64,000 nucleotides of DNA from a virus. Of the stretch, positions 56,135 through 63,936 are shown piece by piece. Positions within the stretch are counted from its first letter, which is position 1. Each line of letters begins with the position of its first letter. The notes beneath the pieces are model-generated. The model searched no databases and was not told the origin of the DNA. It saw only the letters and a program-made list of their open reading frames with translations. The stretch is taken from IMG/VR virus record IMGVR_UViG_3300050014_000619; one strand, written 5' to 3'. The position numbers and the translations under genes are program-made.

Positions 56135-58282
56135 ATGAGCGAAAATACTGACAATACACTATCAGCGTATCTCGGTCCTGAATTTCAGCAACGTTTAATG
56201 TGGCAATTATTGGTTGAGCCAGAATTTGCAGAAAAAACGTTACCAACTTTAGCAATCGAATACTTTGATGACCCAAATCTTAAAAGACTTTACATTATAA
56301 TTCTTGAGTATTTTAAGGAATTTGAGAAAGTTCCTAATTTACAGAATCAGAGTATATTTCAAGCAATTGGCAAATATAAGACTCCCAATAACAATATGGA
56401 AGAAGAGTCTTTACTTGCTGTAATTAAGCGTATTGAACTTTGGAACGAAAGAATTATAAACAAACAGTTACTGTATGATGGCGATGTCGTACAGAAACAA
56501 ACCAATTTATTTATTAAGCAACAGGAATACCGTAAAATAGCTGAAGGTATTATTGTCAAATGTAAAAATGGTGAGATAAAAAGTAAGCATACTGTTGCTA
56601 AAATTGAAGAAGACTTCCAGAAAGTCGCACATATTGGTGATGATGAAGATTATGGTATTGATGTATTCGATAATATCGACTATGCGTTAAGAAAGGAATT
56701 TCGTCAACCAATTGCAACAGGTGTGCGTGTTATTGATGCGGTTACTGGTGGTGGTTTGGGTAAAGGTGAAATTGCAGTTATTTTAACTCCTTCAGGTGTT
56801 GGTAAAACAACGCTATTAACTAAGGTTGCTAATACAGCATACGATGAAGGTAAAAATGTTTGCCAGATAATATTTGAGGACACCAAGGAACAAATTCAAC
56901 GTAAGCATTTTACTATTTGGGCAAAATCAGCTTTAAGTAAGATGGACGAAGAGGTTGAAAATCTTAGAGTTAATAGAATTGCTCATGAAAAAGCAATTGA
57001 AATGAAGGCTAAAGGTGGCAATCTAATTATCAAGAAATTCAGTCAGGAAAACACCACAATGATGGATGTCCGTAAATGGATGATTAACTATCAGAAAAAA
57101 TATGGAATTAAGTTTGATATATTGATTCTTGACTACCTCGATTGTCTTGAATCACATAAGAAATCTCCTGATAGAAATGAAGCTGAACTTGTGATTATTA
57201 AATCATTTGAAGCACTCGCATCAGACTTCGATATACCCGCATGGACTGCAATACAAACAAACCGTAGTGGTTTCAATGCAGAATATGTTGAAGCATATCA
57301 AACTGGTGGTAGTATTAAGAGAATACAAAAAGCACATCTTTTCATGAGTGTTGCTAAAACAAAAGATCAACAAGAAGCAAGTCTGGCTAATATCAGAATT
57401 ATTAAAGCAAGATTTGCAAAAGACGGTCAGGCATTTGATGACTGTATATTTAACAACGACACAATGCAAATTATTATTGAAGACAAACGTTACCCACTGC
57501 AAACCAAAGGACTGAAGCATCATGATACTGAAGACGTAAATAATATTGATGAAACTGCAAGAAAATTACTGGATAAATCTTCTGAGTTAGGCATGCATGC
57601 TGCAATTATGCAACATACTGAAGGAAGCCTAATGAGTAGGCTTAATGACCCAAGTATTAATGATGAACCTATTGATATTGGACAATTTGTGCCAAAGAAA
57701 GATTTAATTAATAAATTTGAAGCCGATACCAAAGTACATGGAGTTGATGCTGAAGCTGAATTAACTAAACGACTGGAAGCCGAAATGCAAGAATCTTATA
57801 GCGATGTGTTGGAGATTGAACCTGATAAACCTATTGAGAATATTGGTGGATTGTTATTAGCAGATCAATTAGTGTCAATTACACCACAGCAAGAGCCAAA
57901 CCCTAATTACCCTATAACATATGTTTACGGTAAGCCTGAACCAGATATTATTGGTTGGACTGGAGAAAGTACGACTGTAGGCGAGAATATTCAAGAGGTA
58001 AAATTGGAAGATATACCCAAAGAAAAGCCAATAACTGTTGAAACTGTGTTACAAAAATACAACGAAGTGAATAAAAATAATAGGACATTTACGCCACCAC
58101 CAGAGGAAAAAATTGTTGATGTTGGTGCAAAATTACTGCACTTAGCAGCAAATCCTATAAGAAATATCAAGGAAGTTGAAAAAACTTTTGATGACCCCGA
58201 TAGTCCATCAATTGCGGGTAATCCGATCTTTGATGCAATAAATAAAGCGATGAAACATCAAAATATTGTAAAAAAAGAGTAG
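56135..58282 (+). CDS. DnaB/gp41-like replicative helicase
   Basis: GGLGKGE, PSGVGKT, FED, LDYLD, WTA.Q.NR, K.RF; long C-terminal extension. Confidence 0.9.
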   Translation: MSENTDNTLSAYLGPEFQQRLMWQLLVEPEFAEKTLPTLAIEYFDDPNLKRLYIIILEYFKEFEKVPNLQNQSIFQAIGKYKTPNNNMEEESLLAVIKRIELWNERIINKQLLYDGDVVQKQTNLFIKQQEYRKIAEGIIVKCKNGEIKSKHTVAKIEEDFQKVAHIGDDEDYGIDVFDNIDYALRKEFRQPIATGVRVIDAVTGGGLGKGEIAVILTPSGVGKTTLLTKVANTAYDEGKNVCQIIFEDTKEQIQRKHFTIWAKSALSKMDEEVENLRVNRIAHEKAIEMKAKGGNLIIKKFSQENTTMMDVRKWMINYQKKYGIKFDILILDYLDCLESHKKSPDRNEAELVIIKSFEALASDFDIPAWTAIQTNRSGFNAEYVEAYQTGGSIKRIQKAHLFMSVAKTKDQQEASLANIRIIKARFAKDGQAFDDCIFNNDTMQIIIEDKRYPLQTKGLKHHDTEDVNNIDETARKLLDKSSELGMHAAIMQHTEGSLMSRLNDPSINDEPIDIGQFVPKKDLINKFEADTKVHGVDAEAELTKRLEAEMQESYSDVLEIEPDKPIENIGGLLLADQLVSITPQQEPNPNYPITYVYGKPEPDIIGWTGESTTVGENIQEVKLEDIPKEKPITVETVLQKYNEVNKNNRTFTPPPEEKIVDVGAKLLHLAANPIRNIKEVEKTFDDPDSPSIAGNPIFDAINKAMKHQNIVKKE

Positions 58283-58376
58283 TTTCTTTTGACTTTTTGA
58301 AAATCGCATGTATTTATAAATCCGAACACGTTTGCTAAACAATTTTAATTTTTTTTAAAAATATTTTTAAAAACTC

Positions 58377-58407
58377 TTGCAGGTTAAAAAAAAGTGTAGT
58401 ATGTTTG
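58377..58407 (+). promoter_or_regulatory. Bacteroidota sigmaA-type promoter upstream of the RNA cluster
   Basis: TTGC ... TATGTTTG (TAnnTTTG at 58400-58407); a GTATTTAT motif is also at 58310. Confidence 0.7.
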
Positions 58408-58450
58408 CATCGTCTTAGGACAAATGTTCTTTCAAATGATTTAAAATACA

Positions 58451-58578
58451 AAAGGAAACTGTGTGTTATTACAGTAAAAACAAAATTAGCTCAGTGTAGA
58501 GCGTCCGATTCAAAATCAGAAGGTCGGGGTGTCGAAACCCCATCATTGTAAACAAAAATAACAAACGAATTATCCTTT
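58451..58578 (+). ncRNA. RNA module A: conserved stem module enclosing a degenerate tRNA
   Basis: P1 AAAGGA/TCCTTT, AACT, P2 GTGTGTTATT/AATAACAAAC, ACAGTA, GAATTA; inside are D arm (GCTCAGTGTAGAGC), anticodon arm (loop TTCAAAA) and T-like arm. Confidence 0.7.
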
Positions 58579-58651
58579 TAACAATATAAAAAGTTCTTTG
58601 AAAACTATGGTTCGATTTAAAAGTCCGCAGTATTTATAATAAATATGTATT

Positions 58652-59413
58652 ATGAATAATTGTTTGAATTGTGGAAAATTGGTAAAAAATAAATTTTGTA
58701 ATGTTTCTTGTCAAAATGAGTTTCAAAATACTCAAAAAAATGATAAAAAATATGGTAAGTTTGTTGATTATTCGGTTAAATGTATTTCATGTGCTAAAAT
58801 TTTTATTGTAAATGAACGTGAAAAACTACACCCACAAAAGAAAAAATATTATTGTTCACGAAGTTGTGCTAATAAAAGAAAGCATTCACAAGGAACTAAA
58901 GATAAAATTTCATTAAAATTAAAAACCAAAAAAAGATTAACTGTTAATTGTGAATATTGTGGAAACAGTTTCGAGCAGAAAAGAGAAACACAAAGATTTT
59001 GCGGAAATTCATGTTCGACTAAATTTAGAATGCCGTTAAGGGGTTATGAAAGAATTGGTGGTTTATGTTCAGTAAAGTCACAAAACAAAAGAGGTAAAAA
59101 TGAAATATTTTTTGCAAAACTATGTTGTGATAAATTTAAATCAGTTCTTTGTAATGAACAAATTTTTAATGGATGGGATGCAGACGTAATTATTGAAGAT
59201 TATAAAATTGCAGTATTATGGAATGGTGTTTGGCATTATAAAAAAATATCGAAAAATCATTCATTATTACAAACAGAGAATAGAGATAAATTAAAAATTA
59301 AAGAAATTGTTAATTGTGGATATGAACCATATGTTATAAAAGATTTAGGAAAATTTAATAAAACCTTTGTTATTAAGGAATTTGAAAATTTTAAGAAATA
59401 TTGCGGGGTGTGA
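58652..59413 (+). mobile_element. Vsr/EDxHD-like putative homing endonuclease with zinc-ribbon repeats
   Basis: C..C...F...FC(S/N)..C repeats; D...EDYKIAV.WNG.WH. Confidence 0.6.
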
Positions 59414-59483
59414 GAAGTGGTATCTCAGTGGGCTCATAACCCACCGCTTAACAGCCTCGAAGGTTCAAATCCTTCTCCCGCTA
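59402..59483 (+). tRNA. tRNA-Met(CAT), initiator-like, with extended variable arm
   Basis: TGCGGGG/TCCCGCT acceptor with 1:72 mismatch, GTGGG-CTCATAA-CCCAC, GAAGG-TTCAAAT-CCTTC; no encoded CCA. Confidence 0.88.
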
Positions 59484-59564
59484 CAATGAAATTGAAAGGT
59501 CACGGCATACACTCCGTTGAAAGCAAGTCACAGGAAGACTGCGCCAGTCGATTTCGAGAAATAA

Positions 59565-59643
59565 TGAAGAACTGGTGGTTTTTACAGTATCAATTTGACG
59601 GTAAATCAAACTAAAAACGAAAACAAGACCAACGAATTTCTTC
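59565..59643 (+). ncRNA. RNA module B (short form with one internal stem-loop)
   Basis: TGAAG/CTTCA, AACT, GGTGGTTTT/AAGACCAAC, ACAGTA, GAATTT. Confidence 0.65.
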
Positions 59644-59674
59644 AAAACTTTTAACGTTCTTTAAAATAAAATAC

Positions 59675-59796
59675 GGGAAGATAGTAAAAAGAAATACTAT
59701 CTCAATATTCTCTTCAATGAGAAAACTAATAGTGTTTTCAGTAAATACAAATTGTTTTGAAAACAAAAATTTGAGGCTCGAAACCTCATCTTCCCG
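59675..59796 (+). ncRNA. RNA module C: tRNA-like acceptor and T arm with permuted module inside
   Basis: GGGAAGA/TCTTCCC, TGAGG-CTCGAAA-CCTCA; internal AAATACTAT/ATAGTGTTT, TTCTC/GAGAA, AACT, CAGTA. Confidence 0.65.
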
Positions 59797-59853
59797 CTAA
59801 CTTATACGCAGACAAGCCTCTTGCGAAAGCAAAGTAACTGCGTGATTGAATAC

Positions 59854-60006
59854 GGGAAAACTGAAAGTGTTTACAGTAATATACGGAGGTTCGAATCCTT
59901 CTATCCCCACAAATTAATAAAAATTTGGGGATATAGACAAGTGGTAAAGTCAATAGTCAGTTAAACTATGAACAAAAAAAGCAACAAATACTTTTGAATT
60001 ATTCCC
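59854..60006 (+). ncRNA. RNA module D: module enclosing a circularly permuted tRNA (YrlA-like topology)
   Basis: GGGAA/TTCCC, AACT, GAAAGTGTTT/AAATACTTTT, ACAGTA, GAATTA; T arm and TATCCCCA precede GGGGATA, D arm and anticodon arm. Confidence 0.75.
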
Positions 60007-60222
60007 TAAATTTATAAAACGGCATGGGTCGTGTCAACGCTAATCGGACAATATTAAACCCAACCCGTTTAAAGTTTTTGGTTGTTGGTATCAGAGTTTT
60101 TAAATAAAAACGGGGCATACCACCTAACATTTGACGATCTGCTCTTATGGATAAGCGTAGTGACAAGGTTAAGAATGGTTTTTCATCGTAGAAGTACGGT
60201 GTTTTTTCAAAAAAAGAAATAA

Positions 60223-60310
60223 AGAAGAACTTGTTGTGAATACAGTAATTGAAATTTGCCCTCCATGTGAGAGGGGGCACAAACTACCAAATTACAACTA
60301 AACTTCTTCT
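60223..60310 (+). ncRNA. RNA module E (with internal GC-rich hairpin)
   Basis: AGAAG/CTTCT, AACT, GTTGTGAAT/ATTACAAC, ACAGTA. Confidence 0.6.
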
Positions 60311-60338
60311 CTTATTTGAGAAGAGTAGTTATTCTTTA

Positions 60339-60389
60339 AAAAATGGGTGGAGACTTGATGTAGAAATATATCACCTCACCCATTTTTAT
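60339..60389 (+). terminator. terminator-like hairpin closing the RNA cluster
   Basis: aaaaatgggtg ... cacccattttt. Confidence 0.65.
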
Positions 60390-60468
60390 TTTTTATTCTA
60401 AATTATTTTTGTTTTTTTATTCTAATTTATTTTTTATATTGATTTATTATTATATATTTGCACATTAA

Positions 60469-61179
60469 ATGGAAAATGAAGTAAAAATATATACATTATC
60501 ACACCCAATAACTAATGAAGTTAGATATGTGGGTAAAACGGTTGAATCTTTGGAAGAAAGATTACGTAAACACATATCAAGAAGAGATAATACATATAAA
60601 AGTAATTGGATTATTTCTTTGAAAAAGGAAGGCTTAACTCCAAATATTGAGTTACTTGATGAATGTTCTTTGGTTGATTGGCATTGGCTTGAAAAATATT
60701 GGATTTTACAATTTAAATGTTGGAATTTTAAATTAACGAATATTTGTGAGGGTGGTAAAGGAAGTGATGGATTGAAACATTCTATTGAAAGTAAAGAAAA
60801 AATGAGTCAACGACAAAAAGGTAAACAATGGAGATTAGGTGCTGTTCTTACTGATGAAACCAAAGAAAAAATTAGATTAGGTAATTTAAATAAAAAAAGA
60901 AATCCTGATTCAGTAAAAAAAATGATAATAACAAAAACTGGCATGTCAACTGGCGTTGGAAGAAAACATACTATGACACATATAAACAATATTAGTAATG
61001 GTATGATTAAAATAAAAGGAAAATCAGTGTCACAATATGATTTAAATATGAATTTTATTAAAGATTGGGCATCAATATCAACTGCCTCAAAAACACTAAA
61101 AATACCTAATAGTAATATTGTTAATGTTTGTAAGGGTAATAGAAAAACGGCAAAAAATTTTATTTGGATATATAATTAA
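60469..61179 (+). mobile_element. GIY-YIG homing endonuclease (NUMOD3 + NUMOD1)
   Basis: IYTL..P...VRYVGKT; HS.E.KEKMS repeats; V.QYDL....IK.W.S...AS. Confidence 0.85.
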
Positions 61180-61192
61180 AAATTGTAAAATT

Positions 61193-62827
61193 ATGGAAAA
61201 TTTAGTACTAACAAAATCAAGTTTAGATTTAATTAAATCTTCAATTATTCAAGGACTTGAAACAGCGAGTGGAAGTCGTAGTTCTGCAACTTACTACCAC
61301 AGCAGAGACGAACAAATGAAAGCTATAAGGACTCAGGTTGGGAACTTATATAAACTTTCAAAAGAACTCCCATTGATCATAGCCTCACAAAAAGGTGCTA
61401 CAGGTCAATTCGTATCGGAAGTACTGTTCAATGAGTTGAAAAATACTCTAAGGGGTGGAGCATGTAATATTGTTAATCCAATTGACTGGTATGATAATGG
61501 TATCAGCGATAAGGCAGTTCTTACTGCATTGAATAACCTTGGTGAAAATGGTTTACCATATGTTCTGCGTTTATTCGTATCATTGAAAGACGCAAAAGTA
61601 AATAACGAAAGAACAAGAAAAATCATATTGGGTTACATTTGGGGTCAGCCTAACTTGGAATTTTATGCAATGAAATACAGAAACAAAATTGCTGAAATTC
61701 TGACTCATGTATATGGTCAGAAGAAAACCAGCATATTGCTTTCTATTGCACAGAAGCAAGTTGCAATCAACAACACTGTTCTTTTCAACAATGTTTACAG
61801 CGAAAAGGAAGCAAAGATTGTCAATGATTGTATTGTAAAGTACTTCAATGGCGATGCTACTAAAGCATTCAAATTACTGCTGTTCTTATTTAAAAAGGAT
61901 GCTGGTGTTGATTTCTTCGAATTTCCTCTTTTGGCTGAATACCAGAAGGCAAAGGTTGATATCAAAGGTATTAAGAATGTTCCAGAAGAAGTTCTGCTTG
62001 GCTTAATTTCATCTGTAAGACATCCACAGTACCACTCAATGTGGTCAAGTGATATTCAGAAGGAAGCAACTAAGGCTATGATCAGATCAACTGTTCAGGT
62101 AACTTCTGTGAACCAGCAGGTTCGTCAAACCAAATCAACCGCAAAGTTGGGTGTTGAAAAACACGTTGATCTTGAAAAAGCAACTGACTTCTTGGCACTT
62201 TACAAGACTGGTTATGAAACTACTTTCACTGATGGAATTTGGGACGCAATCAACAAACTTGCAGAGAAGAAGAAAATTCAAGGATTCTTCTACCAGAACA
62301 TCGGTATTATTCTTGATAATAGTGCATCAATGACTGGCGACAAGGCTGAGTCAAAGAACACACCAAGATCAATTGCTAATTTCACAGCAATGGTATTGGG
62401 TAAATCAGCAAGAATTTCAACATTGGTGACTTCAGATGAATTTGTAAGTGACATGGGTTCATTATTCATCAACTTACTTAAACTTGAAGGTACAAACAAG
62501 TATGATGCGATTTTCATCATAACTGATGGATACGAAAACGCATATGATGGTTTGACTAACGAAGTAATTCAAATCTGGAGAGCAGAAACTCAGAGTGTAA
62601 CACCTATCTTCCAGATTTCTCCAACTACTGGTGCTGAAATGGGTGGTAACGTAAGACCTTTGAGTCCAAATGTTGTAACTATGGCAATCAATAATCCAGT
62701 TGCAATTCAGCCACAGATTCAGGCAAGGCTGTTGGAAATCGACACTCCACGTTGGCTTGAAAATCAGGTTCGTGCTTTAGAAGCTGCTCCTGTTAAGAGA
62801 ACAAAAAAAATAAATGTAAACGCTTAA
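61193..62827 (+). CDS. TROVE/Ro60-like protein with C-terminal vWA domain (ORF-track start 61118; likely start 61193)
   Basis: SG....TYY...E N-terminal motif as in Ro60; helical body; vWA MIDAS LDNSASM and IFIITDG.EN. Confidence 0.65.
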   Translation: MENLVLTKSSLDLIKSSIIQGLETASGSRSSATYYHSRDEQMKAIRTQVGNLYKLSKELPLIIASQKGATGQFVSEVLFNELKNTLRGGACNIVNPIDWYDNGISDKAVLTALNNLGENGLPYVLRLFVSLKDAKVNNERTRKIILGYIWGQPNLEFYAMKYRNKIAEILTHVYGQKKTSILLSIAQKQVAINNTVLFNNVYSEKEAKIVNDCIVKYFNGDATKAFKLLLFLFKKDAGVDFFEFPLLAEYQKAKVDIKGIKNVPEEVLLGLISSVRHPQYHSMWSSDIQKEATKAMIRSTVQVTSVNQQVRQTKSTAKLGVEKHVDLEKATDFLALYKTGYETTFTDGIWDAINKLAEKKKIQGFFYQNIGIILDNSASMTGDKAESKNTPRSIANFTAMVLGKSARISTLVTSDEFVSDMGSLFINLLKLEGTNKYDAIFIITDGYENAYDGLTNEVIQIWRAETQSVTPIFQISPTTGAEMGGNVRPLSPNVVTMAINNPVAIQPQIQARLLEIDTPRWLENQVRALEAAPVKRTKKINVNA

Positions 62828-62838
62828 AATATCATACT

Positions 62839-63936
62839 ATGAACAAAAGAGAACTTACAGAAATGTTAAAAGGTTGCCGACCAGTCAAAGACAAGGACGG
62901 AAACATCGTAGTTCAGTCAATTATGAACATGCAGCTTGTTTGCTTAACTGCAGACGCTGAATTCTCATTGGATACTCGCTTTGCGAACCCCTTGACTTCA
63001 TTAGTATCAAGTAATAGCACTTATGGTGAGATCACTTTTACTAATAAGGAAAAGAAGGAAGTAATACTTCCTGTTCAAATGGCTGTATTGACTAAACAAA
63101 GTGCTCAGAACCACGGTATGGTTAAAGCAGGTTACGTTGAACCTAATTCAAGCACCACATATCATGATGCTGGTTGCGTACAGGGTGGACAAACTGGTTA
63201 CTTCCGTGGTACTCAGGAATTTCGTATGATTCCCGTATCTATGCGTGAAATGTTATTTGAAAAAGTAGGTTATACTTCTGGCTACCAGAACATTTATCCT
63301 GCAATTCAGAAGCTCGGCTTAGAAACTAAGTCTGGTACTGGTAACTATTTGAACATATACTTTGAAAAATTCGACAAGAAACTCGAACAGTTTATTGCAC
63401 ATTTCGAACGTCCAAAGAATCTTATTGGTATCATTGTATTGATTGATGGTGAAATTGTTGCAATAGACAAATTCCCTTCATTTACATACGCTGAACAGGT
63501 ATGGGAAATGATGATCAGAGACTGTTATGGTTCTTTGGCAATTATTAGTGAAGTGCAGAACAAAACTACTGGTCATCCATTTACTGAAACTTATACTGAG
63601 CTTAAAAAGACTCATCAGACTAATGTTATTGATTTGCTTGAAAAGGCAATGAAAAAGACTAAAAAGTCTATGACTGATGACGTTCAGGAAAGGATTCAGG
63701 AAGTTCTTGATTTACAGTTTGACGCAGTACTTGATACTGAAGGTCAGCCAATAGGAAAGTCTGCTCCAAAGAGTTATGTCTTGAGAGCCGAAGGTTATAT
63801 TGGACAGGTAATTACCGAAAATGATTTTAACCATTTGGTATCAATCATCAAAAGGGAGAGATTCAACCCTAATGCTTTCAGGGAAGTAAATGAACTAAGA
63901 AAGAAAGCAAAGAAACAAGAAAGATTCAGTCTTTAA
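62839..63936 (+). CDS. ARPP/DUF6569-like protein
   Basis: Y.....N......ILP......QNH......CV..G pattern; later GIIVLIDGE...ID.F; recognised tentatively by eye. Confidence 0.4.
   Translation: MNKRELTEMLKGCRPVKDKDGNIVVQSIMNMQLVCLTADAEFSLDTRFANPLTSLVSSNSTYGEITFTNKEKKEVILPVQMAVLTKQSAQNHGMVKAGYVEPNSSTTYHDAGCVQGGQTGYFRGTQEFRMIPVSMREMLFEKVGYTSGYQNIYPAIQKLGLETKSGTGNYLNIYFEKFDKKLEQFIAHFERPKNLIGIIVLIDGEIVAIDKFPSFTYAEQVWEMMIRDCYGSLAIISEVQNKTTGHPFTETYTELKKTHQTNVIDLLEKAMKKTKKSMTDDVQERIQEVLDLQFDAVLDTEGQPIGKSAPKSYVLRAEGYIGQVITENDFNHLVSIIKRERFNPNAFREVNELRKKAKKQERFSL

What the first reader, a model, noticed from the sequence alone, without database searches (positions are those of the whole stretch)
59675..59796. 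Module C is the reciprocal permutation of module D
C opens at the acceptor stem like a normal tRNA: 7 bp GGGAAGA/TCTTCCC, TA at positions 8-9, a 5-bp T stem and a 7-nt loop. Its D/anticodon region is replaced by the module with strands swapped (3' strands first, closed by a TTCAAT loop). The circular order of parts matches D. Two permutations of one architecture side by side suggest a circular RNA intermediate or duplication-deletion origin. A competing hairpin, gatagta/tactatc, could act as a switch.
Basis: partly seen in the sequence, partly recalled or inferred. Interest (0 to 1): 0.75.

Follow-up and report, generated by a model that had tools for sequence, protein, structure and literature searches.

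The report
Phage tRNA-shaped RNA with Ro60 handle
This 122-base stretch of a huge peat-soil phage is a real small-RNA gene: a tRNA-shaped RNA with normal free ends that carries, inside its D loop, the same conserved "handle" found on four neighbouring RNAs encoded just upstream of a Ro60-like ring protein. It is most likely a new form of the known Ro60/Y-RNA tRNA mimics and not a working tRNA.

Summary

The element belongs to a conserved family. A covariance model finds 77 copies of at least 84 bits in roughly 60 of 72 related huge-phage loci. Across 57 distinct sequences, 97.8% of cells pair and 22 of 30 pairs show compensatory change.

Two descriptive claims need correcting:
- **The anticodon region is not replaced.** The family keeps a short D stem, G18G19, an anticodon-like arm (5 bp, 7-nt loop) and a 5-nt variable loop. 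The handle is a roughly 68-nt insert in the D loop. Rfam's tRNA model matches a typical member end to end.
- **C is not a pure circular permutation of D.** In D the handle sits in the variable region.

The conserved 569-aa gene downstream folds like Ro60, which makes C a Y-RNA-like tRNA mimic with free tRNA ends. The window's copy is a reduced variant with no GG loop and a CUCGAAA T loop.

The competing hairpin shows a few compensatory changes but is thermodynamically minor in 55 of 58 copies. Nothing supports a circular RNA.

This scan has noted the same handle family on other phage DNA. I found no publication describing it.

The parts
59675..59681 (+). Acceptor stem, 5' strand (GGGAAGA)
   Evidence: Pairs 7 of 7 with 59789-59795. 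In the family, 6 of 7 acceptor pairs show changes on both sides.
59682..59683 (+). U8 A9 equivalents (TA)
   Evidence: Invariant in alignment A2. Aligned to tRNA model positions 8-9 in L041.
59684..59686 (+). Short D stem, 5' strand (GTA)
   Evidence: Pairs with TAC 59746-59748. The window's GUA/UAC, L044's GAUU/AAUC and L049:1918's GUUU/AAAC are compensated variants of the consensus GC/GC.
59687..59691 (+). A-rich linker, about 13 nt shorter than in typical family members
   Evidence: Alignments A2 and A3.
59692..59700 (+). Handle helix P2, 3'-type strand (AAATACTAT)
   Evidence: Pairs with 59729-59737. 94% of cells pair, and 5 of 9 pairs change on both sides. The same AAAUAC/GUGUUU helix occurs in modules B, D and E.
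59701..59707 (+). Handle internal bulge, 3' side (CTCAATA)
   Evidence: Unpaired in the consensus fold. Its first bases (C59701 in the window's 7-bp version, up to 59703 in the 8-bp minimum-energy version) are part of the competing hairpin's partner strand.
59708..59723 (+). Handle helix P1 (TTCTC / GAGAA) capped by loop TTCAAT
   Evidence: P1 pairs in 99-100% of cells, and 3 of 4 pairs are compensated. In D the same helix is formed by the RNA's two ends.
59724..59728 (+). Handle bulge, 5' side (AACTA) with the conserved AAC
   Evidence: A50 A51 C52 T53 are invariant in A2. The same AAC is seen in the B-, D- and E-type copies across loci.
59729..59745 (+). Handle helix P2 5'-type strand (ATAGTGTTT) plus conserved junction TCAGTAAA
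   Evidence: GTGTTTnCAGTAA recurs 3-5 times per locus in 120 places. It is invariant in A2.
59746..59748 (+). D stem, 3' strand (TAC). The family's AGGUA (G18 G19 U A) segment just before it is deleted in this copy.
59751..59767 (+). Anticodon-arm-like hairpin: stem ATTGT/ACAA(A), 7-nt loop TTTGAAA, nominal anticodon TGA
   Evidence: The stem pairs in 100% of cells, and 3 of 5 pairs are compensated. The loop is 7 nt in 53 of 57 copies, with a purine at position 37 in 53 of 53 and U33 in 37 of 53. Aligned to the tRNA model's anticodon arm.
59767..59771 (+). Variable loop (AAATT). It shares A59767 with the mismatched last position of the anticodon stem.
   Evidence: The variable loop is 5 nt in 55 of 57 family members.
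59772..59788 (+). T arm: TGAGG, CTCGAAA, CCTCA
   Evidence: All 5 stem pairs are compensated in the family. The CUCGAAA loop, with C in place of U54, is shared with the close relatives L014, L022 and L023.
59789..59796 (+). Acceptor stem 3' strand (TCTTCCC) and discriminator G; no encoded CCA
   Evidence: The discriminator is A in 44, G in 11 and U in 2 copies.
59680..59701 (+). Competing hairpin GATAGTA / TACTATC. It excludes acceptor pairs 6-7 (pairs 5-7 in the 8-bp version in the minimum-energy fold), the D stem and part of P2.
   Evidence: In the window's minimum-energy fold. 89.8% of cells pair, with 3 compensated pairs in the family. It is in the minimum-energy fold of only 3 of 58 copies.
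59854..60009 (+). Module D (context): the same handle formed by the two ends, enclosing a tRNA-like body with a loop-closed acceptor stem
61193..62827 (+). Ro60-like gene (helical-repeat ring plus vWA domain with a DxSxS motif), the presumed protein partner
   Evidence: The AlphaFold2 model's top 9 Foldseek matches are all Ro60/Rsr, full length, E = 2e-6. D375, S377 and S379 are invariant.

Best explanation
C is a genuine small-RNA gene of a conserved phage family. It is derived from a type-I tRNA and keeps these parts:
- a free 7-bp acceptor stem and U8-A9;
- a 2-4-bp D stem;
- in most members, G18G19;
- a 5-bp anticodon-like arm with a 7-nt loop;
- a 5-nt variable loop and a T arm.

Its D loop carries an insert of about 68 nt (about 59 nt in the window). 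The insert folds into the two-helix handle: P1, an AAC bulge, P2 (GUGUUU/AAAUAC) and the CAGUAA junction. Four neighbouring RNAs (modules A, B, D and E) carry the same handle.

**Shown here:** the fold, its covariation, the family, the tRNA homology, and constant placement upstream of a Ro60-like gene.

**Inferred:**
- The cluster is transcribed as one precursor.
- C is released like a tRNA, with RNase P cutting at G59675 and the 3' end trimmed after G59796, possibly followed by CCA addition.
- The Ro60-like ring binds the handle.
- The particle then presents a tRNA acceptor end and an anticodon-like loop, while the tRNA elbow is occupied by the handle and the protein. It would act as a tether or decoy for tRNA-recognising proteins, as proposed for bacterial YrlA.
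- The 5'-proximal competing hairpin is most likely a transient co-transcriptional or minor conformer.
For: **Real and conserved.**
- 77 model hits of at least 84 bits, with the next best at 39 bits.
- In A3, 97.8% of cells pair, 22 of 30 pairs are compensated, and 0 of 500 shuffles reach the covariation score or the share of paired cells.
- The seed alignment A2, which is not fitted to the model, gives 98.3% paired and 16 of 30 pairs compensated.
- The consensus fold is the minimum-energy fold, or within a few kcal/mol of it, for most members; the full acceptor stem is kept in 54 of 58.

**tRNA body.**
- The Rfam tRNA model matches L041:613-748 end to end at 43.4 bits (gathering score 29), with the 68-nt insert in the D loop.
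- After in-silico removal of the insert, ARAGORN of 57 members as 75-80-nt tRNAs, against 3 calls on the native sequences.

**Shared handle.** GTGTTTnCAGTAA preceded by AAC occurs at 120 places in the loci, with P1 and P2 partners in each module type.

**Protein partner.**
- The 569-aa gene is the anchor of all 72 loci.
- Its model's top 9 PDB matches are Ro60/Rsr over the full length, and a DxSxS motif is invariant.
- No C-type copy turned up away from the cluster. In loci with no detectable Ro60-like gene, 10 of the 11 C hits lie within about 1.3 kb of the locus end on their downstream side, and one (L159) has about 2 kb. The Ro60 gene lies 0.4-4 kb downstream in intact loci, so a cut-off gene can explain these loci.

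**Precedent.**
- YrlA tRNA mimics are encoded next to Ro60/Rsr, and M. smegmatis YrlA is cut by RNase P and receives CCA (PMC4201824).
- A phage Ro60 binds Y-like RNAs encoded upstream of its gene (PMC12135203).
Against: - No binding, expression or end-mapping data exist for C.
- Pfam and PDB sequence searches do not recognise the protein as TROVE. The link rests on a medium-confidence model (pLDDT 68, TM 0.37-0.45).
- No Rfam family other than tRNA (in particular no Y-RNA family) scores anywhere in the cluster at E up to 10. C's bulge lacks the published GNCGAA/CGAA motif.
- The window's copy is atypical, so this particular copy may work less well or differently. It has no GG segment, a short linker and C at T-loop position 54. 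It scores 106.8 bits against a typical 130-153, and the tRNA model gives only 17.2 bits.
- Related peat strains lack C at this position.
Confidence: 0.6

Rival explanations
1. C is a working tRNA gene whose D-loop insert is an intron. The handle would be cut out and the halves ligated, giving a 70-76-nt decoding tRNA (nominally Ser-UGA).
For: Removing the insert in silico gives ARAGORN-recognisable tRNAs in 30 of 57 members. The anticodon-like loop has a purine at 37 in 53 of 53 and U33 in 37 of 53. The acceptor and T arm are canonical.
Against: - The same handle closes or flanks modules A, B, D and E, where it cannot be an intron.
- The D stem has only 2 Watson-Crick pairs in 30 of 56 members.
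- One fixed acceptor sequence goes with many nominal anticodons: UGA, GUA, AUG, UUG, UUA, UUC.
- A Ser or Tyr anticodon on a body without a long variable arm would not fit bacterial SerRS or TyrRS rules (established knowledge).
- The window's copy is not called a tRNA even after the insert is removed.
- No splicing endonuclease is known in bacteria or seen here.
Confidence: 0.06
2. The handle is real but is not a Ro60 site. It would be a signal for another factor, such as an RNase, the ARPP-like protein or a packaging or modification enzyme, and the nearness to the Ro60-like gene would be only operon context.
For: The handle lacks the published Ro60-binding motifs (PMC4201824, PMC12135203). 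An ARPP-like gene follows the Ro60-like gene in 50 of 50 loci long enough to show it. No binding was tested.
Against: The arrangement matches every described bacterial and phage Ro60 system: structured RNAs with a stem-bulge-stem next to tRNA-like bodies, immediately upstream of a Ro60-fold gene. No C-type copy turned up away from the cluster.
Confidence: 0.17
3. The window's own copy is a decaying paralogue that no longer functions, although the family as a whole is functional.
For: It has lost the GG segment and about 13 nt of linker. It has C at T-loop position 54 and an A-A mismatch in the anticodon-like stem. Its family score is among the lowest. Its minimum-energy fold prefers the competing hairpin by 1.9 kcal/mol. 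Related strains lack C at this site.
Against: - All five main helices are intact: acceptor 7 of 7, P2 9 of 9, P1 5 of 5, T stem 5 of 5.
- The D stem is repaired by a double change (GUA/UAC).
- The CUCGAAA T loop is shared with C-type copies in the closest relatives (L014, L022, L023), so it is a clade trait and not random decay.
- L049:1918 also lacks the GG segment.
Confidence: 0.12
4. C and D interconvert at the RNA level. The handle ends of a D-type RNA would be ligated into a circle, and the acceptor then opened by RNase P, as for permuted tRNAs of red algae.
For: Only the exchange of open and closed ends between C and D, and a published speculation for YrlA (bioRxiv 10.1101/312249).
Against: Both topologies are encoded directly in the DNA. 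The handle sits at different sites of the tRNA body, so opening a circularised D would not give C. No ligase or splicing endonuclease was found among the 19 window proteins scanned. No RNA joints were seen, though C had no RNA cover.
Confidence: 0.03

Closest known systems
YrlA-type Y RNAs of bacterial and mycobacteriophage Ro60/Rsr (Chen et al. 2014, PMC4201824; structure in bioRxiv 10.1101/312249)
   Same: A tRNA-derived structured RNA encoded next to a Ro60-type gene. A stem-bulge-stem module is joined to a tRNA-like body with a T arm and D-loop GG. M. smegmatis YrlA, which has a 7-bp acceptor, is cut by RNase P and gets CCA, so it ends with tRNA-like termini as C would.
   Different: - YrlA's own ends form the Ro60-binding stem, which continues the anticodon stem. 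Its acceptor is a closed loop and it has no anticodon loop.
- C has free acceptor ends, keeps an anticodon-like arm, and carries the handle as a capped arm inside the D loop.
- The handle sequence (AAC...GUGUUUnCAGUAA / ACAAnAAAUAC) is not the GNCGAAN0-1G motif.
- No Rfam family other than tRNA (in particular no Y-RNA family) matched here.
Yrl1 and Yrl2 of Thermus phage phiLo with phage Ro60 (PMC12135203)
   Same: Phage-encoded Y-like RNAs lying directly upstream of a phage Ro60 gene, several per locus.
   Different: The phiLo RNAs are simple stem-bulge-stem RNAs whose 5' and 3' ends pair, with a CGAA bulge. They are not described as tRNA cloverleaves with free acceptor ends.
Canonical tRNA (Rfam RF00005)
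   Same: Acceptor, U8, T arm, anticodon-like arm and 5-nt variable loop. A typical member matches the model end to end at 43.4 bits.
   Different: A 59-68-nt structured insert in the D loop, a 2-4-bp D stem, and nominal anticodons that are inconsistent across members on one acceptor sequence. The window's copy scores below threshold (17.2 bits).
Module D of the same cluster (59854-60009)
   Same: The same handle and the same tRNA-derived parts, with sequence blocks that align.
   Different: D's ends are in the handle and its acceptor is loop-closed. Its handle is in the variable region. It has a full D arm.

Membership tests
YrlA / Y RNA (Ro60-associated) | Encoded next to a Ro60/Rsr (TROVE plus vWA) gene | tested here: met
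   C lies 1.4 kb upstream of the 569-aa gene, with a homing-endonuclease ORF between them. The gene's model matches Ro60/Rsr structures first, and it anchors all 72 loci. Pfam itself gives no TROVE hit.
YrlA / Y RNA (Ro60-associated) | The 5' and 3' ends pair to form the Ro60-binding stem, and the acceptor-like stem is closed by a loop | tested here: not met
   C's ends form the acceptor stem. The handle's distal helix is capped by TTCAAT.
YrlA / Y RNA (Ro60-associated) | Conserved GNCGAAN0-1G (CGAA) motif in the bulge on the 5' strand | tested here: not met
   The window has AACTAATAG. The family has AACU followed by 3-4 variable bases and then (A/G)G. Many D-type copies do carry ACGAAAAG.
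YrlA / Y RNA (Ro60-associated) | Match to an Rfam Y-RNA covariance model | tested here: not met
   Apart from a borderline permuted-tmRNA hit on D (E = 0.011), only tRNA reached E below 0.1 at 57500-61000. Only tRNA was listed in L015, L041 and L039 at E up to 1.
YrlA / Y RNA (Ro60-associated) | Bound by Ro60 in vivo or in vitro | not testable with these tools
   The complex predictor takes proteins only, and no RNA-protein assay is available.
tRNA (RF00005) | 7-bp acceptor, U8, and a T arm with a 7-nt loop | tested here: met
   The window's T loop has C in place of U54.
tRNA (RF00005) | Model score at or above the gathering threshold (29 bits) | tested here: not met
   The window scores 17.2 bits for a partial match, and ARAGORN finds nothing. 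The family member L041 does pass, at 43.4 bits with a 68-nt D-loop insert.
tRNA (RF00005) | Normal D arm and an anticodon consistent with the rest of the body | tested here: not met
   The D stem is 2-4 bp around a large insert. At least 12 nominal anticodons occur on near-identical acceptor stems.
Permuted or intron-containing tRNA genes processed by a splicing endonuclease | A bulge-helix-bulge motif at the junctions and a mature product that is a standard tRNA | tested here: inconclusive
   I saw no bulge-helix-bulge geometry but did not search for it formally. Removing the insert gives ARAGORN-recognisable tRNAs in 30 of 57 members but not for the window. The handle occurs in non-intron contexts.
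tmRNA (one- or two-piece) | G3:U70 alanine identity pair and a tag reading frame | tested here: not met
   Pair 3-70 is G-C in 52 of 57 and never the identity pair in the window. The only hits are weak acceptor/T-arm matches.

The most novel reading that the evidence does not exclude
C-type RNAs would be matured like tRNAs (RNase P cut, CCA added, perhaps even charged). They would then work as Ro60-tethered tRNA decoys or sensors. The free acceptor end and a fast-changing anticodon-like loop (UGA, GUA, UUA and others) would bait host tRNA-targeting defence nucleases or tRNA-repair enzymes, while the Ro60-like ring clamps the elbow through the D-loop handle. The conserved 5' hairpin would couple formation of the acceptor stem to correct folding or occupancy of the handle.
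Probability: 0.13. Interest if true: 0.85.

Novelty: new variant of a known kind. Interest (0 to 1): 0.62.

Why it matters
Ro60 and its Y RNAs are conserved from bacteria to humans, yet what the tRNA-like part of bacterial Y RNAs does is still unknown.

This phage family places one portable handle at three different sites of a tRNA body: the acceptor ends in module A, the D loop in C and the variable region in D. The RNAs sit side by side next to a divergent Ro60-like gene.

Each version leaves a different face of the tRNA exposed. That makes a natural set of variants for asking which face the unknown partner reads. C is the version with a free acceptor end and an anticodon-like loop, so it makes questions about CCA addition, charging and decoy function directly testable.

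It also shows that tRNA-finding programs miss a whole class of tRNA-derived genes in huge phages.

Tried and rejected
- **Rfam.** At gathering thresholds, and at E up to 10 around the cluster, only tRNA hits and noise-level snoRNA or tmRNA fragments appeared. No Y-RNA, GOLLD or ROOL family was listed.
- **tmRNA.** The weak permuted-tmRNA hit on D and the tmRNA hit on a C2 copy cover only the acceptor and T arm. There is no G3:U70 pair.
- **ARAGORN's tRNA-Leu(taa) calls** on L035 and L071 use handle bases (UUUAC AGUAAAG GUAAA) as the anticodon arm. I rejected them because those bases belong to the covarying P2 helix and the invariant CAGUAA junction, and the proposed stem shows no compensation.
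- **Protein searches.** The Ro60-like protein has no Pfam or PHROG family. A profile search of PDB sequences with alignment A1 gave nothing.
- **Own genome.** No whole genome is held for this window.
- **Sequencing runs.** The stretch is held in peat metagenomes. The one RNA run's contig covers only 60143-60311 (module E), and nothing was laid on C, so there is no evidence either way on C's expression or ends.
- **Handle pattern scan of viral contigs.** In the 12 mid-locus matches without a Ro60-like gene that I read, the motif sits in sequence with no RNA-module features and no tRNA gene nearby; 7 of the 12 are one conserved sequence. They look like chance matches, probably inside protein-coding genes (frames not checked), and the other mid-locus matches were not read.
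- **Second alternative pairing.** GUUUUCA with UGAAAAC appears in the window's minimum-energy fold, but by eye in alignment A2 members with GUUUAC do not have the matching change in the partner (GAAUAC, GAACAC); it was not counted formally, and I treat it as chance.
- **Promoters and terminators.** Promoter-like sites are no more frequent than in shuffled sequence, and no plus-strand terminator flanks C.
- **Neighbouring proteins.** Pfam scans of 19 window proteins found no RNA ligase, kinase-phosphatase or CCA enzyme.

Full report
**Setting.** The window is AT-rich phage DNA, about 30% GC. Genes for a gp32-like protein, a UvsX-like recombinase, a 5'-3' exonuclease and a DnaB-like helicase end at 58282. 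A 2-kb non-coding cluster follows (58.3-60.4 kb), interrupted by two homing-endonuclease ORFs at 58652-59413 and 60469-61179. After it come a conserved 569-aa ORF and an ARPP-1-domain ORF. ARAGORN and Rfam see only two tRNAs here, at 58480-58550 and 59402-59484. Searching viral contigs with the 569-aa protein returned 72 loci, from contigs of up to 364 kb. blastn showed that every piece of the non-coding cluster, C included, is conserved among them. The window's DNA is held in many peat metagenomes.

**The observation.** The 124-nt stretch folds far better than shuffled versions, with z = -4.79.

**The family.** I collected 38 homologues (alignment A2). On these, the fold made of acceptor, P2, P1, a hairpin and the T arm pairs in 98.3% of cells. 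Sixteen of 30 pairs change on both sides, and no shuffle or slid register comes close.
- A covariance model built from A2 (R1) finds 77 copies of at least 84 bits in roughly 60 of the 72 loci. The next best hit scores 39 bits.
- The 57 distinct sequences aligned to the model give 97.8% paired cells and 22 of 30 compensated pairs. That alignment is fitted to the model, so it leans towards the structure; A2 does not have this bias.
- There are two subfamilies, C1 and C2 (the copies that start TATGCG after the acceptor). Many phages carry one of each.
- C's position in the cluster varies. It is upstream of tRNA-Met in some loci. It lies 5-6 nt before D in 7 of 52 cases and within 100 nt in 13 of 52; in the window the gap is 57 nt.

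C is therefore an independent, mobile gene unit.

**The shared handle.** The motif AAC, then 4-5 variable bases, then GTGTTTnCAGTAA occurs at 120 places in the loci, 3-5 per locus. In the B-, D- and E-type modules it is the 5' strand of a two-helix element. Its partner (ACAAnAAATAC, some variable bases, then a pyrimidine run) lies downstream, so the RNA's ends close the element. In C the partner strands come first and the distal helix is capped by a loop.

- Restricted to a typical member, Rfam's tRNA model aligns L041:613-748 end to end at 43.4 bits against a threshold of 29. A 68-nt insertion falls in the D loop. The hairpin before the T arm aligns as the anticodon arm, and the next five bases as the variable loop.
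- Across the family, that hairpin has a 5-bp covarying stem and a 7-nt loop in 53 of 57 copies. Position 37 is a purine in 53 of 53, and position 33 is U in 37 of 53. The variable loop is 5 nt in 55 of 57.
- The bases just before the 3' D-stem strand read A-G-G-U-A, as in a tRNA D loop.
- The D stem has 2-4 pairs. It is compensated in the window (GUA/UAC), in L044 and L058 (GAUU/AAUC) and in L049:1918 (GUUU/AAAC).
- Deleting the insert in silico makes ARAGORN of 57 members as 75-80-nt tRNAs. It makes 3 calls on the native sequences.

C-type RNAs are therefore whole type-I tRNA cloverleaves with the handle inserted in the D loop.

**Consequence for the permutation claim.** In D the handle lies between the anticodon arm and the T arm, and D has a full D arm. 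In module A the handle flanks the acceptor ends. C and D do exchange which helix is open and which is capped. A D-family HMM aligns to C in two blocks in swapped order, and aligns further to a rotated C. But they are not pure circular permutations of each other.

**The window's copy.**
- It scores 106.8 bits against a typical 130-153.
- It lacks about 13 nt of the A-rich linker and the AGGUA(A)AGC segment.
- Its T loop is CUCGAAA.
- The tRNA model gives it only 17.2 bits.
- All main helices are intact and its D stem is repaired by a double change.
- The CUCGAAA loop is shared with C-type copies of its closest relatives (L014, L022, L023), so that feature is a clade trait.
- Contigs of related peat strains diverge at 59654, which suggests C is absent at this spot in them.

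**The competing hairpin.**
- In subfamily C1 the pairing of positions 4-10 with CUAUCUC is kept, with compensatory changes at positions 5-7 in a few lineages such as L039, L050 and L077.
- In C2 a different pairing (UGCGA with UCGUA) takes its place. It does not touch the acceptor stem, and it rests on conserved sequence without clear compensation.
- The full acceptor stem is in the minimum-energy fold of 54 of 58 copies. The competing hairpin is there in only 3, including the window's (-30.7 against -28.8 kcal/mol).
- It is transcribed before the acceptor's 3' strand. My reading, which is inference, is that it forms as a transient or minor conformer. The alternative is a contact between the 5' region and the handle's bulge that could be linked to handle occupancy.

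**The protein.** Pfam, PHROGs and a PDB sequence search do not recognise the 569-aa protein. An AlphaFold2 model from 16 homologues (pLDDT 68) shows an N-terminal helical-repeat region and a C-terminal alpha/beta domain. Its nine best Foldseek matches in the PDB are all Ro60 or Rsr, aligned over the full length, with E down to 2e-6. The Thermus phage Ro60 also appears among the matches. A DxSxS motif (D375, S377, S379), as in the vWA metal site of Ro60, is invariant. An ARPP-like gene follows in 50 of 50 loci long enough to show it.

**Link between C and the Ro60-like gene.** No C-type copy turned up away from the cluster. In loci with no detectable Ro60-like gene, 10 of the 11 C hits lie within about 1.3 kb of the locus end on their downstream side, and one (L159) has about 2 kb. 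The Ro60-like gene lies 0.4-4 kb downstream of C in intact loci, so a cut-off gene can explain these loci. The 12 mid-locus handle-pattern matches that I read look like chance matches, probably inside coding sequence.

**Comparison with what is known.**
- Bacterial and mycobacteriophage YrlA RNAs are tRNA mimics encoded next to Ro60/Rsr. Their ends form the Ro60-binding stem and their acceptor is a closed loop. M. smegmatis YrlA is cut by RNase P and receives CCA (PMC4201824; bioRxiv 10.1101/312249).
- Thermus phage phiLo Ro60 binds two Y-like RNAs encoded upstream of its gene (PMC12135203).
- Jumbo phages are known to carry TROVE proteins (PMC7824862).

C fits this kind of system but fails several YrlA membership features: where the ends lie, the binding motif, and a model match. 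It adds a topology I did not find described in three literature searches: a tRNA with free ends and a protein handle in its D loop. Notes from this scan report the same handle family beside Ro60-like genes in many other phages. I treat those notes as leads, not as evidence.

**Verdict.** C is a real, conserved RNA gene. I did not test binding, processing or function.

Noticed in passing
window 58451-58578 (tRNA body 58480-58550); L016 4663-4738, L027 3088-3163, L050 4408-4479 and others: The tRNA-like gene about 40 nt upstream of tRNA-Met (module A, flanked by the handle) has a different anticodon in almost every relative: gtc, tca, taa, cgt, caa, ttt, ttc, tct, tga, tta, gtt, atc, tat, cgc, cct and gca. 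The flanks stay homologous. C-type RNAs also vary in their nominal anticodon.
   Followed up: partly
L016 5087-5231, L025 5422-5565, L041 1422-1578 and other D-type copies: In many D-type RNAs the loop that closes the acceptor stem begins with a discriminator followed by CCA (for example GCCAAAA or ACCAAU). An RNase P cut plus trimming would then expose a ready-made CCA end, as reported for M. smegmatis YrlA. The window's D has ACAAAUU, with no CCA.
   Followed up: no
window 60143-60311: A 205-nt contig from a peat metatranscriptome (depth 88.7, 3 differences) covers module E and the 80 nt before it, then diverges at 60311. It is the only RNA-library cover found in the cluster, and DNA carry-over is not excluded.
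   Followed up: no
window 58652-59413 and 60469-61179: Two homing-endonuclease-type ORFs interrupt the RNA cluster. The first is a zinc-finger ORF whose DNA is 75% identical to a stretch of Prevotella phage Lak-C1. The second is a GIY-YIG/NUMOD ORF. Relatives lack them or carry them elsewhere.
   Followed up: no
window 62839-63936: An ARPP-1-domain gene directly follows the Ro60-like gene in 50 of 50 loci with enough downstream sequence. ARPP has been described in ADP-ribose-related conflict systems (PMC9503650), not with Ro60.
   Followed up: partly
window 59402-59484: The tRNA-Met (CAU) carries about 12 extra bases in its variable region, making it 82-83 nt. Most relatives have 72-76 nt, and several others (for example L001, L027, L044) have 85-89 nt.
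   Followed up: no
window 59565-59662: Module B's outer 5' strand GAAGAAC has two possible 3' partners: TTTCTTC at 59637-59643 and GTTCTTT at 59656-59662. The GTTCTTTAAAAT motif recurs upstream of C or D in many loci.
   Followed up: no
window 59803-59845: A hairpin lies between C and D (ACGCAG...CTGCGT) and is conserved in some loci (L040, L045, L069). Other loci have a different hairpin (AATTCCCGG...CCGGGTAA) at the same place.
   Followed up: no
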